64,000 nucleotides of DNA from Escherichia phage A7_1. A program made the translations under genes and the position numbers. Location: the sequence record OP795442; one strand, 5' to 3'. This document shows, piece after piece, positions 11,125 through 63,962 of this stretch. The first letter of the stretch is position 1; every line of letters starts with the position of its first letter. Under the pieces are notes generated by a model, which saw only the letters and a program-made list of their open reading frames with translations, ran no database searches and was not told the DNA's origin.

Positions 11125-11460
11125 ATGGCACTAGTCACTAAGTATTTCATTGAAGGCCAGCAAGCGGCGCAACAAGGTTACAGCCGTGTTACTCGTTACA
11201 AGAAAGAAGAAAACAAGATTGAATTTTTCAAGGGTTACGATAGTGTAAACCGTGATGCAATGGTCCTACGCTTCGAATCCGATCCAGTGGGCAAGCCTGT
11301 TACCTCTTACCAGGCATCACCGCAGATTGTTTATGTTGGTACTGTTAAAGAATGTAACGACAAGTTAATCACTTTGAAGCAGGCCGATCGTGCGGGTTAC
11401 TTTGTTGTTTACACTGCTGACGGTAAGCCTTACCAGTACGAAAGCAAATATTTTAAATAA
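11125..11460 (+). CDS. hypothetical protein
   Basis: 111 aa ORF. Confidence 0.55.
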   Translation: MALVTKYFIEGQQAAQQGYSRVTRYKKEENKIEFFKGYDSVNRDAMVLRFESDPVGKPVTSYQASPQIVYVGTVKECNDKLITLKQADRAGYFVVYTADGKPYQYESKYFK

Positions 11461-11466
11461 AAAGTA

Positions 11467-11495
11467 TTGACAGAAAGAAAGAAGTAAATTAAATT
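11467..11495 (+). promoter_or_regulatory. early promoter TTGACA-N17-TAAATT + 5' hairpin
   Basis: followed by GCCGCA-ATCG-TGCGGC hairpin. Confidence 0.45.
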
Positions 11496-11550
11496 ATACC
11501 ACGTAACGCCGCAATCGTGCGGCAATAAAAACTGATAGGAATTGAACAAA

Positions 11551-11763
11551 ATGGCTAAAATCATCATTAAAAAATCCCGTGTATCTTCTGTTGCTCGCGT
11601 CGAAATGGTAAACACTATGCCAGGTTACCGGACTCGCGAGGAAGCCCGAAGCGTTGCAAAACAGATTAAAGCCCGTGGCTTAACTGTAAGTGCACCGACC
11701 AAAACACAAGAAGGATGGAAGGTATCTATTAAATCCGGTACACTGTCAATCAATAAACACTAA
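11551..11763 (+). CDS. hypothetical small basic protein
   Basis: ATG 11551 (track start 11542 is TTG); 70 aa. Confidence 0.5.
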   Translation: MAKIIIKKSRVSSVARVEMVNTMPGYRTREEARSVAKQIKARGLTVSAPTKTQEGWKVSIKSGTLSINKH

Positions 11764-11825
11764 TAGCCAAAACATTAACGGGGCAACTTTGCCCTCATTA
11801 AATAACATTATCCAGGAGTATTAAC

Positions 11826-11984
11826 ATGACTAGCCAAAACACTAACATTGAAAAAATCAACATTACTAAAGAGCGTAAAGCATGGAATGAAACATTAAAT
11901 CTCAAAGGTAAGAAGCTGAATAAAACTAAACGCGATCGCAGTACAAAGCGGGCCTTTTGTGAATTTACAGCGGATCAAGAGTGA
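11826..11984 (+). CDS. hypothetical small basic protein
   Basis: 52 aa, below track cutoff; SD AGGAG. Confidence 0.4.
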   Translation: MTSQNTNIEKINITKERKAWNETLNLKGKKLNKTKRDRSTKRAFCEFTADQE

Positions 11985-58166: not shown

Positions 58167-59204
58167 TTATTTTGCAACATTTCCAGGAATTAGTTGTCGA
58201 TGCTGGACAAAACCTTTCAAGTTACCACTCCAGAAATTACCATCACGATCTACATGAGTAATTCCTTCTTCCCAACTGGTAGGGTCCCAAGCCACATTCA
58301 CCATTGGAACATTAGGGATAAAATCTTCCTCTGTTTCAGCGATCTCTTTAGCTTGGTGTTCAAAAGGGGACGCGTGTACCTTTTTACCACCCACAAGTCG
58401 AGAATAAATATCTAAAGCTTTATCTTTTGTACTGTCAAGTCGGCGATAACTTACCTGACCGCAGCAAGAAGAGGAAATTCGTAAAGCCTCTTCTTCACTG
58501 AGCATAACAGGCTTGCCATCTTCATCCTCTACATAATAACCAAAGAATACGAAAAAGTCATCACCAAACAATCCAATATTTTCGTAAGCATGTTCAACAT
58601 AGGGAGTATGCCAAACCCCAGGCTCCAATTTTTCTGGATGAGAAGCATCATACGCTTCTTTCATTTTCTTTGCAAGCACTTCGATTGTTGGATCTGCATC
58701 TGCATCTACACGCAACCAGAAGAAATTTTCAAACTCGGTTGCTGTGACTACCGTCTTCATCATTTGGAAAGGTTCAATCAGGCGGTTGGCAATTTGCTTA
58801 TGATACCCTGCCGTCTCAAATCGTTCAGCCCATTCAGATGCAGACTCTGCCGCTTTAACCCAAGCTTCTCGGCCTGTACAGAAAAGATTGTGAGCCAGAC
58901 CATCTTCACCATCAACCCAATCATACCAAACTTTACCGTCGTGTTCCACACCATGATCTTGCATACCTGGTTTGTTAGCCCCAAATCGAACAGGCATTGC
59001 TGTGTTATTACGAACAAGCTCAATCATCTTCTTGATCGGAACTGCACGAGAAGACATTGCGTTTCGACTAAACAGTCGATGGGTCATCAACTCAGAATGA
59101 ATAAAACGAGGATACGTCAATTCAAAAGTTGTGATTCGAGAATTTGTTACCGTACCAATAGAGTCTGCAATAATTTTAACTTCAATTTGATTCAGCTTGT
59201 CCAC
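58167..59204 (-). CDS. ThyX-like flavin-dependent thymidylate synthase (divergent)
   Basis: THRLFSRNAMSSRA aligns with ThyX RHRxxSxxxxSxRY signature (first Arg replaced by Thr); long C-terminal extension. Confidence 0.5.
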   Translation of the reverse strand: MDKLNQIEVKIIADSIGTVTNSRITTFELTYPRFIHSELMTHRLFSRNAMSSRAVPIKKMIELVRNNTAMPVRFGANKPGMQDHGVEHDGKVWYDWVDGEDGLAHNLFCTGREAWVKAAESASEWAERFETAGYHKQIANRLIEPFQMMKTVVTATEFENFFWLRVDADADPTIEVLAKKMKEAYDASHPEKLEPGVWHTPYVEHAYENIGLFGDDFFVFFGYYVEDEDGKPVMLSEEEALRISSSCCGQVSYRRLDSTKDKALDIYSRLVGGKKVHASPFEHQAKEIAETEEDFIPNVPMVNVAWDPTSWEEGITHVDRDGNFWSGNLKGFVQHRQLIPGNVAK

Positions 59205-59207
59205 TTA

Positions 59208-59435
59208 TTACTCCTTATTCTTTTCTTTAAGTACATTCAAATTATATGGTAGATAGCCTTCTAATTCTAACCAATCACCTTTTTCATTAATATATTCTAA
59301 AGATTCAATCTTGTCACCCTTTTTCTTTAGAACATTTAAAACTTGATCAACATCAAGAGAGTTATCGGAAAGCTGAAGTTTATCATCAACATACATACCT
59401 TCCCAATCATATCCTCGGAATATTACAATTTTCAT
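59208..59435 (-). CDS. hypothetical protein
   Basis: 75 aa ORF. Confidence 0.45.
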   Translation of the reverse strand: MKIVIFRGYDWEGMYVDDKLQLSDNSLDVDQVLNVLKKKGDKIESLEYINEKGDWLELEGYLPYNLNVLKEKNKE

Positions 59436-59617
59436 TTTATTTTCCTGATTTTGTAATCAACACGAACATCATACATAACGTGAAGATACATGTCAAACAT
59501 TTCTTTGCACATATCGCTTTTTACTTTGAAGGAAGCCAAAAGGCTTCCATTTTCTTTAGAAAGGATCTCTACATAATCCCCTTCCCTAACTACCCACCTT
59601 CCTTTACCACATCTCAA
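59432..59617 (-). CDS. hypothetical protein
   Basis: 61 aa ORF. Confidence 0.4.
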   Translation of the reverse strand: MRCGKGRWVVREGDYVEILSKENGSLLASFKVKSDMCKEMFDMYLHVMYDVRVDYKIRKIK

Positions 59618-60219
59618 GATTCTCTCTCCAAAATAAATTCAGCAATCGATGCCCAATCGCTAGTTACCAAGTCGTAACATCCGATCTCTTCTTCATCTTG
59701 ACTGAAGGGTGTATCATACTTGATTTTTACTACCTTGTCACTAAATTGATTCAAAAATTTATTACGATCATCAATGATGTAATCACCCGAAACTCCAGCC
59801 TTGTACTTTGTAGCATAAAAACCACACCCGTCTGTTCCATTTTCAAGGTCCAGGTTAGGGAAGTGTCGCTTCAAGAAACGAACCTTACTGCTAAAATGAC
59901 CTTTCTTGCAATAAGAAACAAACCGAATAGGGAATCCTGCGGCATGTAACTTGTTGATTGCATCTACCGCTCCCGCAATAGGGAACATCTTATCATACAA
60001 GAAAGGATCTTCCCAATAATCATAAGGAGGGATAGCCTTCTTACAGCGATCAGGGAAGTACCGAGAAAGATTGTAATCAAAATACCCATTCTCGCTAATG
60101 TCCTTGTCCATAAGGTCAGAATCAGCCTCCATATTATAGATGCTTTCCATCCAGTGCAACCAAGGCCATCCAGAATCAACGATAGTTAAGTCAACATCCA
60201 CAATGATCGCTTTTTTCAT
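59614..60219 (-). CDS. HAD-superfamily phosphatase, 5' nucleotidase-like
   Basis: N-terminal DVDLT (DxDxT) motif. Confidence 0.55.
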   Translation of the reverse strand: MKKAIIVDVDLTIVDSGWPWLHWMESIYNMEADSDLMDKDISENGYFDYNLSRYFPDRCKKAIPPYDYWEDPFLYDKMFPIAGAVDAINKLHAAGFPIRFVSYCKKGHFSSKVRFLKRHFPNLDLENGTDGCGFYATKYKAGVSGDYIIDDRNKFLNQFSDKVVKIKYDTPFSQDEEEIGCYDLVTSDWASIAEFILERES

Positions 60220-60858
60220 TTACTCTTTCCCCTCTGAGAGTTTGATAATTAATTTTGCAGTTTCAGTTAGCTTACCATTAACGTTTTCAACGTCGAAATC
60301 TCTAGGTCGTGCACTTTCAGGGAAATTCTCAGAGTAAATATAATTACGAGAATCACCTTCAAAAGTTAATTTATTACCTGTTCGTGGATCAGTACGATGT
60401 AAACGGATCAGGGTGTAATCACCATTTACCGCTTTAACTACCGGAACACTTTCATGAATAAATCCACCATCAGAGCTAATAAATGTACAAGTATAACCAT
60501 CCATTTCCATACTTTTCGCAATATCTTTAACACGCTTGGCAAGAGCAACACCGAAGTATTCTTCCCCGAAGAGAGGCTTCGCAACATTCTCCGAGATGTG
60601 GATCAGCCAGTTACGTGGGGACACTTGTTTACCTGCAACATTAAAATATGGTTGAGGTACTTCTTTATAATCACGGTGGTAAAGTGCATCCCACAGTTCA
60701 CGATTAATACCTGCAATACGAATAGCTAGATCGATAAGGGAACCTTTAAACTCCACATGAATACCCACGTTGTTGCCTACGGTAACTAACTGAGCGATCT
60801 CACCAGCAAGAGCATCTTTACCAGAAAAAGCAGGACCATTCAAATTGATAAATTTCAT
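60220..60858 (-). CDS. deoxynucleoside monophosphate kinase (T4 gp1-like)
   Basis: P-loop LNGPAFSGKD near N-terminus. Confidence 0.6.
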   Translation of the reverse strand: MKFINLNGPAFSGKDALAGEIAQLVTVGNNVGIHVEFKGSLIDLAIRIAGINRELWDALYHRDYKEVPQPYFNVAGKQVSPRNWLIHISENVAKPLFGEEYFGVALAKRVKDIAKSMEMDGYTCTFISSDGGFIHESVPVVKAVNGDYTLIRLHRTDPRTGNKLTFEGDSRNYIYSENFPESARPRDFDVENVNGKLTETAKLIIKLSEGKE

Positions 60859-60881: not shown

Positions 60882-60908
60882 ATAAAAAACCGCCCCGAAG
60901 GGCGGTTA
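60882..60908 (-). terminator. terminator hairpin AACCGCCCCGAAGGGCGGTT (family copy)
   Basis: on minus strand followed by TTTTTT. Confidence 0.6.
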
Positions 60909-60916
60909 AATCAAAA

Positions 60917-62011
60917 TTACAGAATGTTTGCCAGCGTTTTCTTCATCGCTGCCTTCTCGCGAACATTCTGACGATCTCGTGCACAAGAACCACATTCTTG
61001 ACAACGATAAATCTTGAACTTAGACAAGAACGTTACTGCTGACTTACCTTCCTCAATAACCAGGTCGTCACTACCACAACGAACACAACGCATTGCCGTC
61101 TGATCTTTGTGGAACAATGCAATGTTCGGATGTTTACGCATGAAAGGTCGTACAGTCAGATACAGTTCTTCCAGCGTTGGAATATCACCAATGTTATATT
61201 CTTCCATCTCTTCAAATGCGGTTGGGTCACCTTCAACACAACGTCGCCACAGACTGAAACCTTCGTGCGACAGCTTACGACTATCAAGTTCAAAATAGTT
61301 ACATGCGGCTTCAAGTGCATTTGAAGGAAGAGAGAAAGCTTCTTTCAGTGCAGCCAATGTATCGATCGTAATGTAAGGACTTGGTGGTTGCATACCGTAA
61401 TATGCGAAACGCTGATTTGCCCAACCACGGTCAAAGCGAGCATTATGTGCGATGAAGATATCACATTCATCCAGAACTTTCCACAGGTCTTCGATCAACT
61501 TACGATCTGACTGGTGATCTCGTGCAAACTCTTCTGGATAATCCGTCAGCTTGCGGCTGAAGATCGACGGGTTGTGCAACCACTTACCAGCGAATGTCAG
61601 CATGTACGGTTCCATAATTACCTGCTTCGGTGCAATGAACTGTTTAAATCGTCCAAACGAATATGCAACAGAAGGAGATGTTTCAACGTCACCAAGGAAA
61701 ACTTTAGCACCTGGGTTCTGCTCTTTGATCTTTTCAATGAAATCTTTTTGAATCTTAGCAACAGGTTCACCACCCGACTCTTTCTGCTGCATATATTCTG
61801 CATAGTTTTCGTAATCTTCATACGCCGGAGTCATTTCAAGGAGTTCTTTAACACTTGAAACATCATTCTTTTCAATTTCACGACGGATCATATTACGAAC
61901 CGTGGATTCCTGAGACTCTTTACCCAATTGGCGAGCTACTTCGCGCTGAGACAGACCGTGTTTCATCAGTTGCAGAACTTGTTCAACAGTAAAAGTTACT
62001 TTATTAGTCAC
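60917..62011 (-). CDS. DEDDh 3'-5' exonuclease with N-terminal HTH and C-terminal zinc ribbon
   Basis: Exo I D-x-E (LGDVETSP), Exo III H-x4-D (IAHNARFD), CxxC..CxxC tail. Confidence 0.65.
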   Translation of the reverse strand: MTNKVTFTVEQVLQLMKHGLSQREVARQLGKESQESTVRNMIRREIEKNDVSSVKELLEMTPAYEDYENYAEYMQQKESGGEPVAKIQKDFIEKIKEQNPGAKVFLGDVETSPSVAYSFGRFKQFIAPKQVIMEPYMLTFAGKWLHNPSIFSRKLTDYPEEFARDHQSDRKLIEDLWKVLDECDIFIAHNARFDRGWANQRFAYYGMQPPSPYITIDTLAALKEAFSLPSNALEAACNYFELDSRKLSHEGFSLWRRCVEGDPTAFEEMEEYNIGDIPTLEELYLTVRPFMRKHPNIALFHKDQTAMRCVRCGSDDLVIEEGKSAVTFLSKFKIYRCQECGSCARDRQNVREKAAMKKTLANIL

Positions 62012-62021
62012 TAAAAACTCC

Positions 62022-62267
62022 TTATTTAAAAAATTCGATTACATCGGCAACAGCAAAGTCACGGATATCTTGTTTATCTACATCATACGCTTTCATAAAC
62101 CACTGTTCGCCACGATGATACGGCGATTCACCATACCACATCACTGGCGTTCCAGTTACAGTACGATAACCACACTCACCTTTCCAATTGCGATAATAAA
62201 ACCGCAGGGTTGGTAAACCGTAGGTGTTATGGTCAACTTCTTGACTCATACAAATAACCCTCCTCAA
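62022..62267 (-). CDS. hypothetical protein
   Basis: 81 aa ORF. Confidence 0.45.
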   Translation of the reverse strand: MRRVICMSQEVDHNTYGLPTLRFYYRNWKGECGYRTVTGTPVMWYGESPYHRGEQWFMKAYDVDKQDIRDFAVADVIEFFK

Positions 62268-62811
62268 GTTTATCGATAAACGCTTTTACATAAAGAGTTA
62301 TCATCTCCCCTTTATCCAAGCTCTCATCGATAACTACATTGTATCTCAATAAAGCGTTCGTTGCAATTGTTTCTTTCTTTAATCTCTTCAAATATTTTTT
62401 CAGGTCAGCAACAATCTCACCATGAAATTTCCTTGAAGAGTAATCCCTTTCGAGATAGTCAGCCATTCTACGCAGAACTTCACTCATTGTCAAGTCTGTT
62501 TTATCTTCCATATGTTTAGACCAAAGTTTTTGTACACCACCTTCGAAAAGGTTAAGAGTGCTTCCAATAACGCCCCTTACCTTTCCGTCGAAGTGGTCAT
62601 GGTCCAAACAAGGCTTCTCCATAACTTCACCCAGTATAGCACAAACTCCTTGTTGGTCAAGCAATATTTCATCACGATATTTTGCTATTTCTTTTGACCC
62701 ACTTACCCAAAGATCCTTATTTAGTTTCACACGGATAGGTGTAGTCGCCTTATCCTTTGCTGTGAATAGAGGCCTCTTTGACCGCCGCTTCCTCACTCTC
62801 GGTACTCGCAT
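62233..62811 (-). CDS. endonuclease VII-like junction resolvase (T4 gp49-like)
   Basis: CLDHDHFDGKVRGVIGSTLN matches T4 endo VII HLDHDHELNGPKAGKVRGLLCNLCN core; N-terminal start uncertain. Confidence 0.7.
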   Translation of the reverse strand: MRVPRVRKRRSKRPLFTAKDKATTPIRVKLNKDLWVSGSKEIAKYRDEILLDQQGVCAILGEVMEKPCLDHDHFDGKVRGVIGSTLNLFEGGVQKLWSKHMEDKTDLTMSEVLRRMADYLERDYSSRKFHGEIVADLKKYLKRLKKETIATNALLRYNVVIDESLDKGEMITLYVKAFIDKLEEGYLYESRS

Positions 62812-63418
62812 GTACTCCCTCCAAGGCTAAAGCCATTAATAACTCACCATGTGTTGGTTCAAGAGGGTTTTCAAAATACTCTTCCATTCCGAAACGATAA
62901 AGTGACATTGGGAAGTTTATACTACTAAACAAGCTGTTGTCAACATTATTTTTAAATTCCGGTGGAACGTTCGTATCAAATTCCCTAAAGAATTCAGATC
63001 GACTAGAGTTTATAAAAACCCTTAGAGCATTATCAAAAATTGGATTACCTTTTTGCTTAGTCAGATAAAGCAATTCTTTTAGCGAAGCCTTATCAGAAAC
63101 AGACTTAAAAGAATATCCACTAATGATGATCTCGTCAAAACACATACCTCTAACTTTTTGCCAAAAAGACCACTGTGCAGAACTGATCGTCTGAATATGC
63201 ATGTTCAGCTTAGATCGTTCATTAAACAGGTTTATATCGTAACCACTACGATCTTTCTGATAAGAACCAAACCCCAAGCTATTTGCAGTGTGCTTCAGTT
63301 TAGCAATGAAATCCCCCCTTTCGAGGGTATTCCAACAGATCACTAATTTCTTACTCTGGTAAAACTCTTCAGATTCATAGCGTTCAATAACCGTTTCGTT
63401 CAAGGTAGCATCTCCCAA
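62750..63418 (-). CDS. hypothetical protein
   Basis: 222 aa ORF. Confidence 0.5.
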   Translation of the reverse strand: MGDATLNETVIERYESEEFYQSKKLVICWNTLERGDFIAKLKHTANSLGFGSYQKDRSGYDINLFNERSKLNMHIQTISSAQWSFWQKVRGMCFDEIIISGYSFKSVSDKASLKELLYLTKQKGNPIFDNALRVFINSSRSEFFREFDTNVPPEFKNNVDNSLFSSINFPMSLYRFGMEEYFENPLEPTHGELLMALALEGVHASTESEEAAVKEASIHSKG

Positions 63419-63962
63419 TTAAGTAGGCATCTGCAAGATCTGTAGACCCGCCGTTCTTACCTGTCTTTGAATATCCAGCTAAAAACCCAGGTTCCATCAA
63501 CTCGCAAACCTTCATCATTTGATCTTTATCCATTTTAATTTTTTCCATCTTCGTACCTTTTGCATTCATCACTTCTTGTTCTTCACCAGGTAACTTACCT
63601 CGTGCCCAAGATTTAACGGATGTTGGTGCAATTGTGTGTATGTTGTCCATACTATACCCATCTCGAAGCAGTGTCAACTGAATACAGAAAAATAATCCTG
63701 CAAGATCCCTTGTCGCATTACCAGCAGAGCCGAAACTCAAAGACTCCAATACGATCTTCTCAACCTTAAAAGATTCACAAATATCTGCAATGTGTCTAGA
63801 GATGTATGCCATCTGCTCGACAGGGTTGTCAAATCGAATCTGCCAGTCCTTGGCATTTGCAGATCCGGTGGTTTTTAATACCTCTTTAAAGATCGGTTCA
63901 TTACCGTCAAAAACTACACATGCACAAGAAGCCATACTCTGATCGATGGATAAAATTTTCAC
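63384..63962 (-). CDS. RuvC-like Holliday junction resolvase
   Basis: N-terminal ILSIDQS...ACVVFD and C-terminal TDLADAYLIG resemble RuvC catalytic motifs. Confidence 0.55.
   Translation of the reverse strand: MKILSIDQSMASCACVVFDGNEPIFKEVLKTTGSANAKDWQIRFDNPVEQMAYISRHIADICESFKVEKIVLESLSFGSAGNATRDLAGLFFCIQLTLLRDGYSMDNIHTIAPTSVKSWARGKLPGEEQEVMNAKGTKMEKIKMDKDQMMKVCELMEPGFLAGYSKTGKNGGSTDLADAYLIGRCYLERNGY

What the first reader, a model, noticed from the sequence alone, without database searches (positions are those of the whole stretch)
62233..63962. Two different junction-resolvase types side by side
An endonuclease VII-like protein (HxH/zinc motif CLDHDHFDGKVRG) and a RuvC-like protein (ILSIDQS..DLADAYLIG) are encoded within 1.7 kb. 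Phages usually carry one resolvase class, so one may have another role (e.g. packaging debranching versus recombination), or the RuvC call is wrong.
Basis: partly seen in the sequence, partly recalled or inferred. Interest (0 to 1): 0.35.

Follow-up and report, generated by a model that had tools for sequence, protein, structure and literature searches.

The report
Conserved RuvC plus endonuclease VII gene cassette
This E. coli phage (Vequintavirinae, genus Septuagintavirus) really does encode two unrelated kinds of DNA-junction-cutting enzyme in one operon, a pairing kept across this phage group, but both genes belong to known families and why two are needed is untested.

Summary
On the minus strand, 63384-63962 encodes a divergent RuvC-family resolvase. 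It matches PHROG 159 at E 8e-33. The AlphaFold model has pLDDT 96 and its 14 best PDB fold matches are all RuvC. The D7/E73/D175/D178 tetrad is invariant. 62233-62811 encodes a T4 gp49-type endonuclease VII: Pfam PF02945 above its cut-off, T4 EndoVII as the only PDB match, and D70/H71/H73/N87/E90 conserved.

Two corrections are needed. The genes are not contiguous here: a fast-evolving 217-aa ORF of unknown function lies between them and overlaps both. The "zinc motif" is not one: three of T4's four zinc-binding cysteines are replaced.

RuvC followed by EndoVII is a conserved, same-strand pair, usually overlapping. It occurs in rV5, in two marine phages and in 24 of 25 related metagenomic loci. 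About 250-270 GenBank phages match each protein. Both genes evolve under purifying selection and have been inherited together. More distant EndoVII or RuvC loci carry only one of the two nearby, which fits the published "nearly complementary" distribution.

The most likely function is a split by substrate: canonical Holliday junctions for RuvC, broad debranching for EndoVII. This is inferred, not shown. Interest is modest.

The parts
63384..63962 (-). RuvC-family junction resolvase, 192 aa, of a divergent phage subfamily with a roughly 30-aa insertion (about residues 122-150)
   Evidence: PHROG 159 at E 7.9e-33. There is no direct Pfam or NCBIfam hit, but homologues at 30-38% identity carry PF02075, as do 23 of 40 alignment members. 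A profile of the family finds D. radiodurans and E. coli RuvC in the PDB. AF2 model pLDDT 96.1; Foldseek ranks 1-14 are all RuvC. D7, E73, D175 and D178 are invariant in 40 sequences and align to E. coli RuvC D7/E66/D138/D141.
62750..63403 (-). 217-aa ORF of unknown function (PHROG 12410) between the two nuclease genes, overlapping both
   Evidence: PHROG 12410, unknown function, E 9e-19. No Pfam, NCBIfam or PDB match, even with a 28-member profile. Only 31 cluster representatives among 1.84 billion proteins. In every locus examined it lies between RuvC and EndoVII, including L166, whose member P0184 is 21% identical. It is coding: dN/dS 0.09 against phage UPEC06. It evolves fast: 28-30% identity where RuvC keeps 75-79%.
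62233..62811 (-). T4 gp49-type endonuclease VII, 192 aa, with a Lys/Arg-rich N-terminal extension of about 35 aa and a degenerate zinc knuckle
   Evidence: PF02945 at 29.5 bits, cut-off 23.6. PHROG 423 at E 7e-32. T4 EndoVII 1e7d at E 1.7e-6, aligned through the C-terminal helical domain. AF2 model pLDDT 82; the only significant PDB fold match is T4 EndoVII, E 1.2e-5. D70, H71, H73, N87 and E90 are invariant. T4 C26, C58 and C61 are not conserved. dN/dS 0.017 against UPEC06.
62022..62249 (-). Small conserved ORF (75-81 aa, weak WYL-like match) immediately downstream, overlapping the end of the EndoVII gene; same operon
   Evidence: PHROG 3715 at E 7.7e-25; Pfam WYL at 19.3 bits, below its cut-off of 21.8. 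An ORF of 73-94 aa follows EndoVII in rV5 (gp094), L003, L004, L006, L008, L013 and L166.
60917..62011 (-). DnaQ-like 'DNA polymerase exonuclease subunit' with an N-terminal HTH; last gene of the transcription unit
   Evidence: PHROG 403 at E 1.6e-112; Pfam RNase_T at 29.3 bits. Same position in rV5 (gp095) and the IMG/VR loci.
60888..60907 (-). Intrinsic-terminator-like hairpin (8-bp stem, 6 GC pairs, then a T run) that closes the unit
   Evidence: Between the RuvC start and this site the scan finds only weaker, intragenic terminator-like matches, and the promoter-like matches in the region are no more frequent than in shuffled sequence (19 found, 15.6 +/- 3.3 expected).

Best explanation
The window comes from a Septuagintavirus (Vequintavirinae, rV5-like myovirus). 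The flagged region is part of a co-transcribed minus-strand replication and recombination operon. The gene order is 5'-3' exonuclease, small ORF, RuvC-like, 217-aa ORF, EndoVII, small WYL-like ORF, DnaQ-like exonuclease, terminator. The first two genes lie beyond the window end in close relatives.

Both nucleases are genuine, catalytically intact members of two unrelated junction-resolving families: the RNase H-fold RuvC family and the His-Me-finger T4 EndoVII family. They have been inherited together as a linked pair throughout Vequintavirinae and allied marine myoviruses. That means each supplies something the other does not.

The most likely mechanism is inferred from the characterised families, not shown here. 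The RuvC-like dimer makes paired nicks across true four-way junctions that arise during recombination-dependent replication. The EndoVII dimer, which in T4 has a broad substrate range, removes the remaining branches (Y-junctions, three-way junctions, heteroduplex loops, mismatches) so that concatemers can be packaged by the T4-like headful machinery.

Because the genes overlap and share one transcript, the split is more likely by substrate than by time of expression.
For: Phage identity: the window DNA is 92-95% identical to Escherichia phages A73, W70, A5-4 and UPEC06, and the RuvC-like protein is 99% identical to a Septuagintavirus sv54 protein.

Identity and intact active sites.

Operon structure: overlapping gene ends and a strong terminator only after the DnaQ-like gene. 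In rV5 the annotators place a sigma-70 promoter upstream of the exonuclease-RuvC-EndoVII run.

Conserved linkage:
- rV5 gp092/gp093 overlap by 22 nt.
- In Vibrio phage 5P1c the two genes overlap by 44 nt and are annotated 'RuvC-like Holliday junction resolvase' and 'endonuclease VII'.
- In Pseudoalteromonas phage H101 they overlap by 4 nt.
- In IMG/VR, 24 of the 25 loci with this clade's EndoVII have RuvC upstream on the same strand.
- The exception (L098) is the same contig as L012, where RuvC lies about 11 kb away on the same strand. Both genes are therefore kept even when unlinked.
- tblastn finds the two proteins at 80% coverage or more in 270 and 254 GenBank phage records, with similar genus counts for the rV5-like groups.

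Co-inheritance: pairwise identities of the two proteins correlate across 16 loci (r = 0.88; 0 of 5000 Mantel permutations reach this value).

Purifying selection: EndoVII has dN/dS 0.017. RuvC has dN 0.14-0.19 where dS is saturated.

A separate 5'-3' exonuclease of about 370 aa (annotated 'exonuclease' or 'exodeoxyribonuclease'; the rV5 annotators liken it to the phage SP6 exonuclease) lies just upstream in relatives, so RuvC is not needed for primer or flap removal.

Substrate breadth of the two families is established knowledge (T4 EndoVII: Biertumpfel 2007, Shcherbakov 2011 as cited; phage versus bacterial RuvC: PMC3864405).
Against: No biochemical or genetic data exist for either protein in any vequintavirus that I could find. 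The genus papers mention only EndoVII or simply list a RuvC-like gene. Phage RuvC enzymes such as bIL67 RuvC are themselves promiscuous on branched DNA (PMC3864405), so the substrate ranges may overlap heavily. The EndoVII lacks the canonical Cys4 zinc knuckle, which in T4 is needed for activity (my recollection of the literature), so its activity is assumed, not shown. The role of the middle ORF is unexplained. Dimerisation was not tested for either protein.
Confidence: 0.6

Rival explanations
1. Pure redundancy or back-up. Both enzymes do the same job, resolving branched replicative DNA. The phage keeps two unrelated folds so that loss or inhibition of one, for example by a host or competitor factor or by conditions unfavourable to one active site, is not fatal.
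For: Both are co-expressed from one operon. Phage RuvC and T4 EndoVII are each reported to be promiscuous on branched DNA (PMC3864405; PMC5714182). Cells often keep several resolvases, for example RuvC plus RuvX/YqgF (PMC11466669 and PMC9601230).
Against: Strictly redundant genes are usually lost in compact phage genomes. Here both are retained in all 25 clade loci and in about 250 GenBank genomes, even when unlinked, and both are under strong purifying selection. No inhibitor of either family is known to me.
Confidence: 0.2
2. One of the two has been recruited to a non-resolvase role. The RuvC-like protein could act as an RNase H-like or host-DNA-degrading nuclease; several rV5-like GenBank records call it 'RNaseH'. 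Alternatively the EndoVII could act mainly as a mismatch or heteroduplex nickase.
For: 'RNaseH' labels appear in GenBank. The RuvC-like protein escapes Pfam RuvC and carries a clade-specific insertion of about 30 aa. The EndoVII has lost the zinc knuckle and gained a basic N-terminal tail. T4 EndoVII has a documented mismatch-repair role (cited).
Against: Fold matches rank RuvC far ahead of other RNase H-fold proteins: E 3e-9 for RuvC against 5e-4 for RNase T (DEDD exonuclease family) and 1.4e-3 for RuvX; no RNase H structure appears in the listing. The RuvC-specific tetrad, with DxxD on the C-terminal helix, is invariant. A dedicated 5'-3' exonuclease lies next door. The EndoVII keeps the whole T4 architecture, including the C-terminal dimerisation domain.
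Confidence: 0.15
3. The RuvC call is wrong; that is, only one resolvase is present.
For: There is no direct Pfam, NCBIfam or PDB sequence hit for the window protein alone.
Against: PHROG 159 at E 8e-33. Transitive homology to PF02075 proteins. A family profile hits PDB RuvC. A pLDDT-96 model has RuvC structures as its 14 best matches. The catalytic tetrad is invariant.
Confidence: 0.02

Closest known systems
Bacterial RuvC (E. coli, T. thermophilus, D. radiodurans) and Lactococcus phage bIL67 RuvC
   Same: RNase H-like fold (TM 0.74-0.80 normalised to the target). The four acidic catalytic residues are in equivalent positions. The size class is similar, and like bIL67 RuvC it is a stand-alone phage enzyme.
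   Different: Only 12-15% identity in the structural alignments. It is not recognised by Pfam PF02075 or NCBIfam. It has an insertion of about 30 aa that forms a beta-hairpin (residues about 122-150) and a family-specific GNATRDLAGL motif after the catalytic Glu. Sequence preference and dimer geometry are unknown.
Phage T4 endonuclease VII (gp49; PDB 1en7, 1e7d, 2qnc)
   Same: The His-Me finger catalytic residues D40, H41, H43, N62 and E65 are all conserved. The C-terminal helical domain aligns as far as T4 residue 150. Pfam PF02945 scores above its cut-off.
   Different: 28% identity. There is an extra Lys/Arg-rich N-terminal extension of about 35 aa. The Cys4 zinc knuckle is lost: only the C23 equivalent remains, the window protein has two cysteines in all, and the rV5-type relatives (L082, L013) carry a different set of four cysteines. 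It is encoded next to a RuvC gene, whereas in jumbo phages the two families are reported as nearly complementary (PMC7824862) and none of the 54 more distant EndoVII loci had a RuvC within 10 kb.
Cellular genomes with several junction resolvases (E. coli RuvC plus cryptic RusA; Mycobacterium and Deinococcus RuvC plus RuvX/YqgF; Sulfolobus Hjc plus Hje)
   Same: Two structure-selective nucleases in one genome. Complementary rather than identical roles are reported for the mycobacterial pair (PMC11466669).
   Different: Those pairs are not encoded as an overlapping operon. The E. coli and Sulfolobus examples are from my own knowledge and were not checked here. Here the two genes are translationally linked in a virus and, in one sub-lineage, bracket a third gene of unknown function.

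Membership tests
RuvC (crossover junction endodeoxyribonuclease, RNase H-like fold; Pfam PF02075) | RNase H-like alpha/beta fold with RuvC topology | tested here: met
   AF2 model pLDDT 96.1, pTM 0.91. Foldseek PDB ranks 1-14 are all RuvC, E 3.3e-9 to 1.8e-5. Ydc2, the poxvirus resolvase, MOC1 and RuvX follow.
RuvC (crossover junction endodeoxyribonuclease, RNase H-like fold; Pfam PF02075) | Catalytic acidic tetrad equivalent to E. coli D7, E66, D138, D141 | tested here: met
   D7, E73, D175 and D178 are invariant in the 40-sequence alignment. They align to the E. coli RuvC (1hjr) residues in the profile-to-PDB alignment.
RuvC (crossover junction endodeoxyribonuclease, RNase H-like fold; Pfam PF02075) | Direct match to the curated family model above its cut-off | tested here: not met
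   The window protein itself has no Pfam or NCBIfam hit at E <= 0.1. Membership rests on PHROG 159 (E 7.9e-33), on homologues with PF02075 and on a family profile that reaches PDB RuvC at E 9.6e-4.
RuvC (crossover junction endodeoxyribonuclease, RNase H-like fold; Pfam PF02075) | Homodimer that makes symmetric paired nicks in four-way junctions | not testable with these tools
   This needs biochemistry. No multimer prediction was available.
T4-type endonuclease VII (Pfam PF02945, His-Me finger) | Match to the curated family model above its cut-off | tested here: met
   PF02945 at 29.5 bits against a cut-off of 23.6, E 7.1e-7. PHROG 423 at E 7e-32.
T4-type endonuclease VII (Pfam PF02945, His-Me finger) | Catalytic residues equivalent to T4 D40, H41, H43, N62, E65 | tested here: met
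   D70, H71, H73, N87 and E90 are invariant in 17 clade sequences and align to T4. D, H, H and N are invariant in 77 unique viral EndoVII sequences. The T4 sequence used was verified against PDB 1e7d.
T4-type endonuclease VII (Pfam PF02945, His-Me finger) | Cys4 zinc knuckle (T4 C23, C26, C58, C61) | tested here: not met
   The window protein has C, L, G and L at these positions and only two cysteines in all. The knuckle is variable across the family, and many His-Me fingers lack it (PMC5714182). This lowers confidence in structural equivalence, not in family membership.
T4-type endonuclease VII (Pfam PF02945, His-Me finger) | C-terminal helical domain that mediates the domain-swapped dimer | tested here: met
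   The sequence alignment runs to T4 residue 150 of 157. The model is helical over residues 93-190. T4 EndoVII is the only significant fold match (E 1.2e-5). Its low TM score is expected for a monomer model of a domain-swapped dimer. Dimerisation itself was not tested.
T4-type endonuclease VII (Pfam PF02945, His-Me finger) | Cleavage of branched or mismatched DNA, and a role in packaging | not testable with these tools
   This needs biochemistry and phage genetics.

The most novel reading that the evidence does not exclude
RuvC, the 217-aa protein and EndoVII form one dedicated junction-processing module. In it the fast-evolving middle protein, which in every locus examined lies between the two nuclease genes and overlaps both, would regulate, bridge or shield the two unrelated resolvases. 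It could, for example, restrain their toxicity, tether them to the replisome or portal, or counter a host inhibitor. That would make a composite viral 'resolvasome' with no described counterpart.
Probability: 0.1. Interest if true: 0.65.

Novelty: new member of a known kind. Interest (0 to 1): 0.33.

Why it matters
Junction resolvases of different folds are generally treated as interchangeable solutions to one problem, and in jumbo phages RuvC and EndoVII are reported to replace each other. A large, easily cultured group of E. coli, Salmonella, Klebsiella and Cronobacter phages keeps both in one operon. That gives a clean natural system for asking what one resolvase class can do that the other cannot: substrate range, coupling to packaging, or mismatch correction.

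There is also a practical annotation point. In most rV5-like GenBank records the RuvC-like gene is labelled 'hypothetical protein' or 'RNaseH', and in UPEC06 it is annotated with a start that is 27 nt shorter, which I infer (not checked) removes the first nine residues including catalytic Asp7.

Tried and rejected
- **Direct searches with the RuvC-like protein gave nothing useful.** Pfam and NCBIfam returned no hit, and PDB phmmer returned only chance ribosomal S8 matches at E about 1.3. The family was reached only through PHROGs, a homologue profile and the fold.
- **A link between EndoVII zinc-knuckle loss and pairing with RuvC was considered and rejected.** The cysteine positions are just as variable in EndoVII loci without a nearby RuvC.
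- **Temporal division of labour from promoter and terminator scans is not supported.** Promoter-like matches are no more frequent than in shuffled sequence (19 against 15.6 +/- 3.3), and the genes overlap.
- **The function of the middle ORF remains unknown.** Pfam, NCBIfam, a PDB profile search and a whole-library HMMER search gave only a small family of unknown function.
- **Iterated EndoVII profile search on the RuvC loci found no further EndoVII genes** beyond the 14 from the first round. The ORFs downstream of RuvC in L014 (DUF1353), L025 and L012 are not EndoVII.
- **A literature search for phages with two Holliday junction resolvases found nothing**.
- **The A73 annotation of the rest of the window is almost all 'hypothetical protein'** and gave no further context.
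It was rerun without that row.
Full report
**What is there**

The window is from an rV5-like myovirus of the subfamily Vequintavirinae, genus Septuagintavirus. The last 6 kb are 92-95% identical in DNA to Escherichia phages A73, W70, A5-4 and UPEC06. The RuvC-like protein is 99% identical to a protein of Septuagintavirus sv54.

All genes in 58-64 kb are on the minus strand. The flagged interval 62233-63962 is bounded exactly by two intact 192-aa ORFs:
- 63384-63962, MKILSIDQS...DLADAYLIG.
- 62233-62811, ...CLDHDHFDGKVRG...

Both are preceded by good Shine-Dalgarno sequences.

A third ORF of 217 aa lies between them at 62750-63403, with a TTG start as annotated in A73. It overlaps the RuvC gene by 20 nt and the EndoVII gene by 62 nt.

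Downstream come a small ORF of 75-81 aa and a DnaQ-like exonuclease gene, then a strong terminator-like hairpin at 60907-60888. In close relatives, a small ORF and a 5'-3' exonuclease of about 370 aa lie upstream, beyond the window end.

**Is the RuvC call right?**

Yes. The protein alone gets no Pfam, NCBIfam or PDB sequence hit. Other evidence is consistent and strong:
- It matches PHROG 159, 'RuvC-like Holliday junction resolvase', at E 7.9e-33.
- It is homologous at E 1e-16 to 1e-8 to proteins of about 160 aa that carry Pfam RuvC PF02075. Of the 40 members of the alignment, 23 hit PF02075.
- A profile of the family finds D. radiodurans and E. coli RuvC in the PDB. D7, E73, D175 and D178 align to E. 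coli D7, E66, D138 and D141, and these four residues are invariant.
- The AlphaFold model is very confident (pLDDT 96.1, pTM 0.91). Its 14 best PDB matches are all RuvC, including Lactococcus phage bIL67 RuvC. Ydc2, the poxvirus resolvase, MOC1 and RuvX follow, and RNase T ranks well behind.

The subfamily differs from canonical RuvC by an insertion of about 30 aa that forms a beta-hairpin.

**Is the EndoVII call right?**

Yes, with one correction.
- Pfam Endonuclease_7 scores 29.5 bits against a cut-off of 23.6, and PHROG 423 gives E 7e-32.
- T4 EndoVII is the only PDB sequence match. It aligns from T4 residue 32 to 150, through the C-terminal helical domain.
- T4 EndoVII is also the only significant fold match of a moderately confident model (pLDDT 82).
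- The catalytic residues D70, H71, H73, N87 and E90 (T4 D40, H41, H43, N62, E65) are invariant.

The correction concerns the 'zinc motif'. The protein has only two cysteines, and the positions of T4 zinc ligands C26, C58 and C61 hold L, G and L. The identity of the T4 ligands is from my own knowledge (Raaijmakers et al. 1999). The rV5-type relatives L082 and L013 have a different set of four cysteines, and L009 keeps the canonical CxxC...CxxC. These positions vary as much in EndoVII loci that lack a nearby RuvC. Many His-Me fingers lack the knuckle altogether (PMC5714182). I therefore treat this as a structural curiosity, not as evidence of inactivity.

The clade also has a conserved Lys/Arg-rich N-terminal extension that T4 lacks.

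**The pair is conserved**

This is the main new result.
- In rV5 itself, gp092 (RuvC-like, annotated 'hypothetical') and gp093 (EndoVII) overlap by 22 nt.
- In Vibrio phage 5P1c the two genes overlap by 44 nt and are already annotated 'RuvC-like Holliday junction resolvase' and 'endonuclease VII'.
- In Pseudoalteromonas phage H101 they overlap by 4 nt.
- Starting from RuvC, 11 IMG/VR loci with RuvC identity down to 33% have EndoVII immediately downstream. None of the roughly 58 loci with short canonical phage RuvC has one within 10 kb.
- Starting from EndoVII, 24 of the 25 loci with clade-type EndoVII have RuvC upstream on the same strand. Of these, 18 overlap or abut, five have a gap of 350-530 nt that holds the middle ORF, and one has a 736-nt gap. 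None of the 54 more distant EndoVII loci has a RuvC within 10 kb.
- The single exception, L098, is the same 136-kb contig as L012, where RuvC lies about 11 kb upstream on the same strand. Both genes are retained even when separated.
- tblastn finds the two proteins at 80% coverage or more in 270 and 254 GenBank phage records, with similar genus counts for the rV5-like groups.
- Pairwise identities of the two proteins are correlated across loci (r = 0.88; 0 of 5000 permutations reach this), as expected for co-inheritance.
- Both are under purifying selection. EndoVII has dN/dS 0.017 against UPEC06. RuvC has dN 0.14-0.19 where dS is saturated.

**The middle ORF**

It belongs to a tiny family: 31 cluster representatives among 1.84 billion proteins. 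It has no Pfam, NCBIfam or PDB relative, even with a 28-member profile. It evolves fast, at 28-30% identity where RuvC keeps 75-79%, yet it is coding (dN/dS 0.09).

In every locus examined it lies between RuvC and EndoVII. This includes L166, whose member P0184 is only 21% identical and overlaps both neighbours. Its conserved part is a C-terminal F-x-F-P-x-S-L-F-R...P-T-x-E-E-F-L...E-G motif. I could not assign a function.

**How it most likely works**

Shown: two intact nuclease genes of two unrelated junction-resolving families lie in one operon, are conserved as a unit, and are each under selection.

Inferred from the characterised families: the RuvC-like dimer resolves true Holliday junctions made during recombination-dependent replication. 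The EndoVII dimer clears the wider range of branches and mismatches before or during headful packaging, as T4 gp49 does.

A dedicated 5'-3' exonuclease next door makes an RNase H-like role for the RuvC protein unnecessary.

Rivals are pure redundancy, exaptation of one enzyme, and, as the most novel reading, a three-protein module in which the middle protein regulates or bridges the nucleases.

**Comparison with what is known, and novelty**

Each gene is a new member of a known family. Near-identical genomes are already in GenBank, and some automated annotations already name both genes. Papers on the group mention only EndoVII or list a RuvC-like gene without comment. I found no paper that discusses dual carriage.

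[quoted passage not shown] The vequintavirus cassette is an exception to that pattern.

This is a useful, testable oddity rather than a surprise. Cells commonly keep several resolvases, and nothing here suggests a new mechanism. Interest is about 0.33.

Noticed in passing
window 62750-63403 (-): A 217-aa ORF of unknown function (PHROG 12410) is wedged between the two nuclease genes and overlaps both. Its family is tiny (31 representatives among 1.84 billion proteins) and fast-evolving. It lies in this same position in every locus examined, including one whose member is 21% identical (L166).
   Followed up: yes
window 63384-63962 compared with L001 (UPEC06) and L002 (A73): The RuvC gene is almost identical to UPEC06 at synonymous sites (dS 0.008), while the genes on its downstream side have dS 0.1-0.26. 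This suggests a recent recombinational patch, that is, a mosaic boundary near 63.4 kb.
   Followed up: partly
window 62022-62249 (-): A small ORF (75-81 aa; PHROG 3715; sub-threshold Pfam WYL match) follows EndoVII in most relatives examined, including rV5 gp094 and L166. Its function is unknown. One GenBank record calls it 'WYL domain-containing protein'.
   Followed up: partly
L001 (UPEC06) 11372-11923; GenBank rV5-like records: Annotation problems in relatives. UPEC06 annotates the RuvC-like gene 27 nt shorter (552 nt against 579 nt); I infer, without checking, that this drops the N-terminus with catalytic Asp7. Many rV5-like records call the gene 'RNaseH' or 'hypothetical protein'. A73 annotates EndoVII with a shorter start (165 aa against 192 aa), which drops the conserved basic N-terminal tail.
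   Followed up: partly
GenBank records MG0656xx: About 20 records named 'Campylobacter phage' (59-143 kb, several unannotated) carry RuvC and EndoVII proteins with almost the same identity to the query as E. coli rV5-like phages. They look like rV5-like coliphage genomes under a Campylobacter label.
   Followed up: no
window 58167-60858 (-): A nucleotide-metabolism cluster lies downstream of the cassette: ThyX-type thymidylate synthase, a 5'(3')-deoxyribonucleotidase-like HAD protein and a dNMP kinase. Class Ia ribonucleotide reductase genes lie beyond it in relatives.
   Followed up: no
L012 and L098 (IMG/VR contig 3300045988_163358); L014-L019: In one gut-type lineage the RuvC and EndoVII genes are about 11 kb apart instead of adjacent. 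In another group (L014-L019) the long RuvC is followed by a DUF1353 protein, or in L018 by a 558-aa ORF, with no EndoVII within 10 kb. Whether that group has an EndoVII elsewhere is unknown.
   Followed up: partly
window 60917-62011 (-): The DnaQ-like 'DNA polymerase exonuclease subunit' carries an N-terminal helix-turn-helix-like segment, with weak HTH and transcription-regulator matches in Pfam and PHROGs. This is an unusual fusion for a proofreading-type exonuclease.
   Followed up: no
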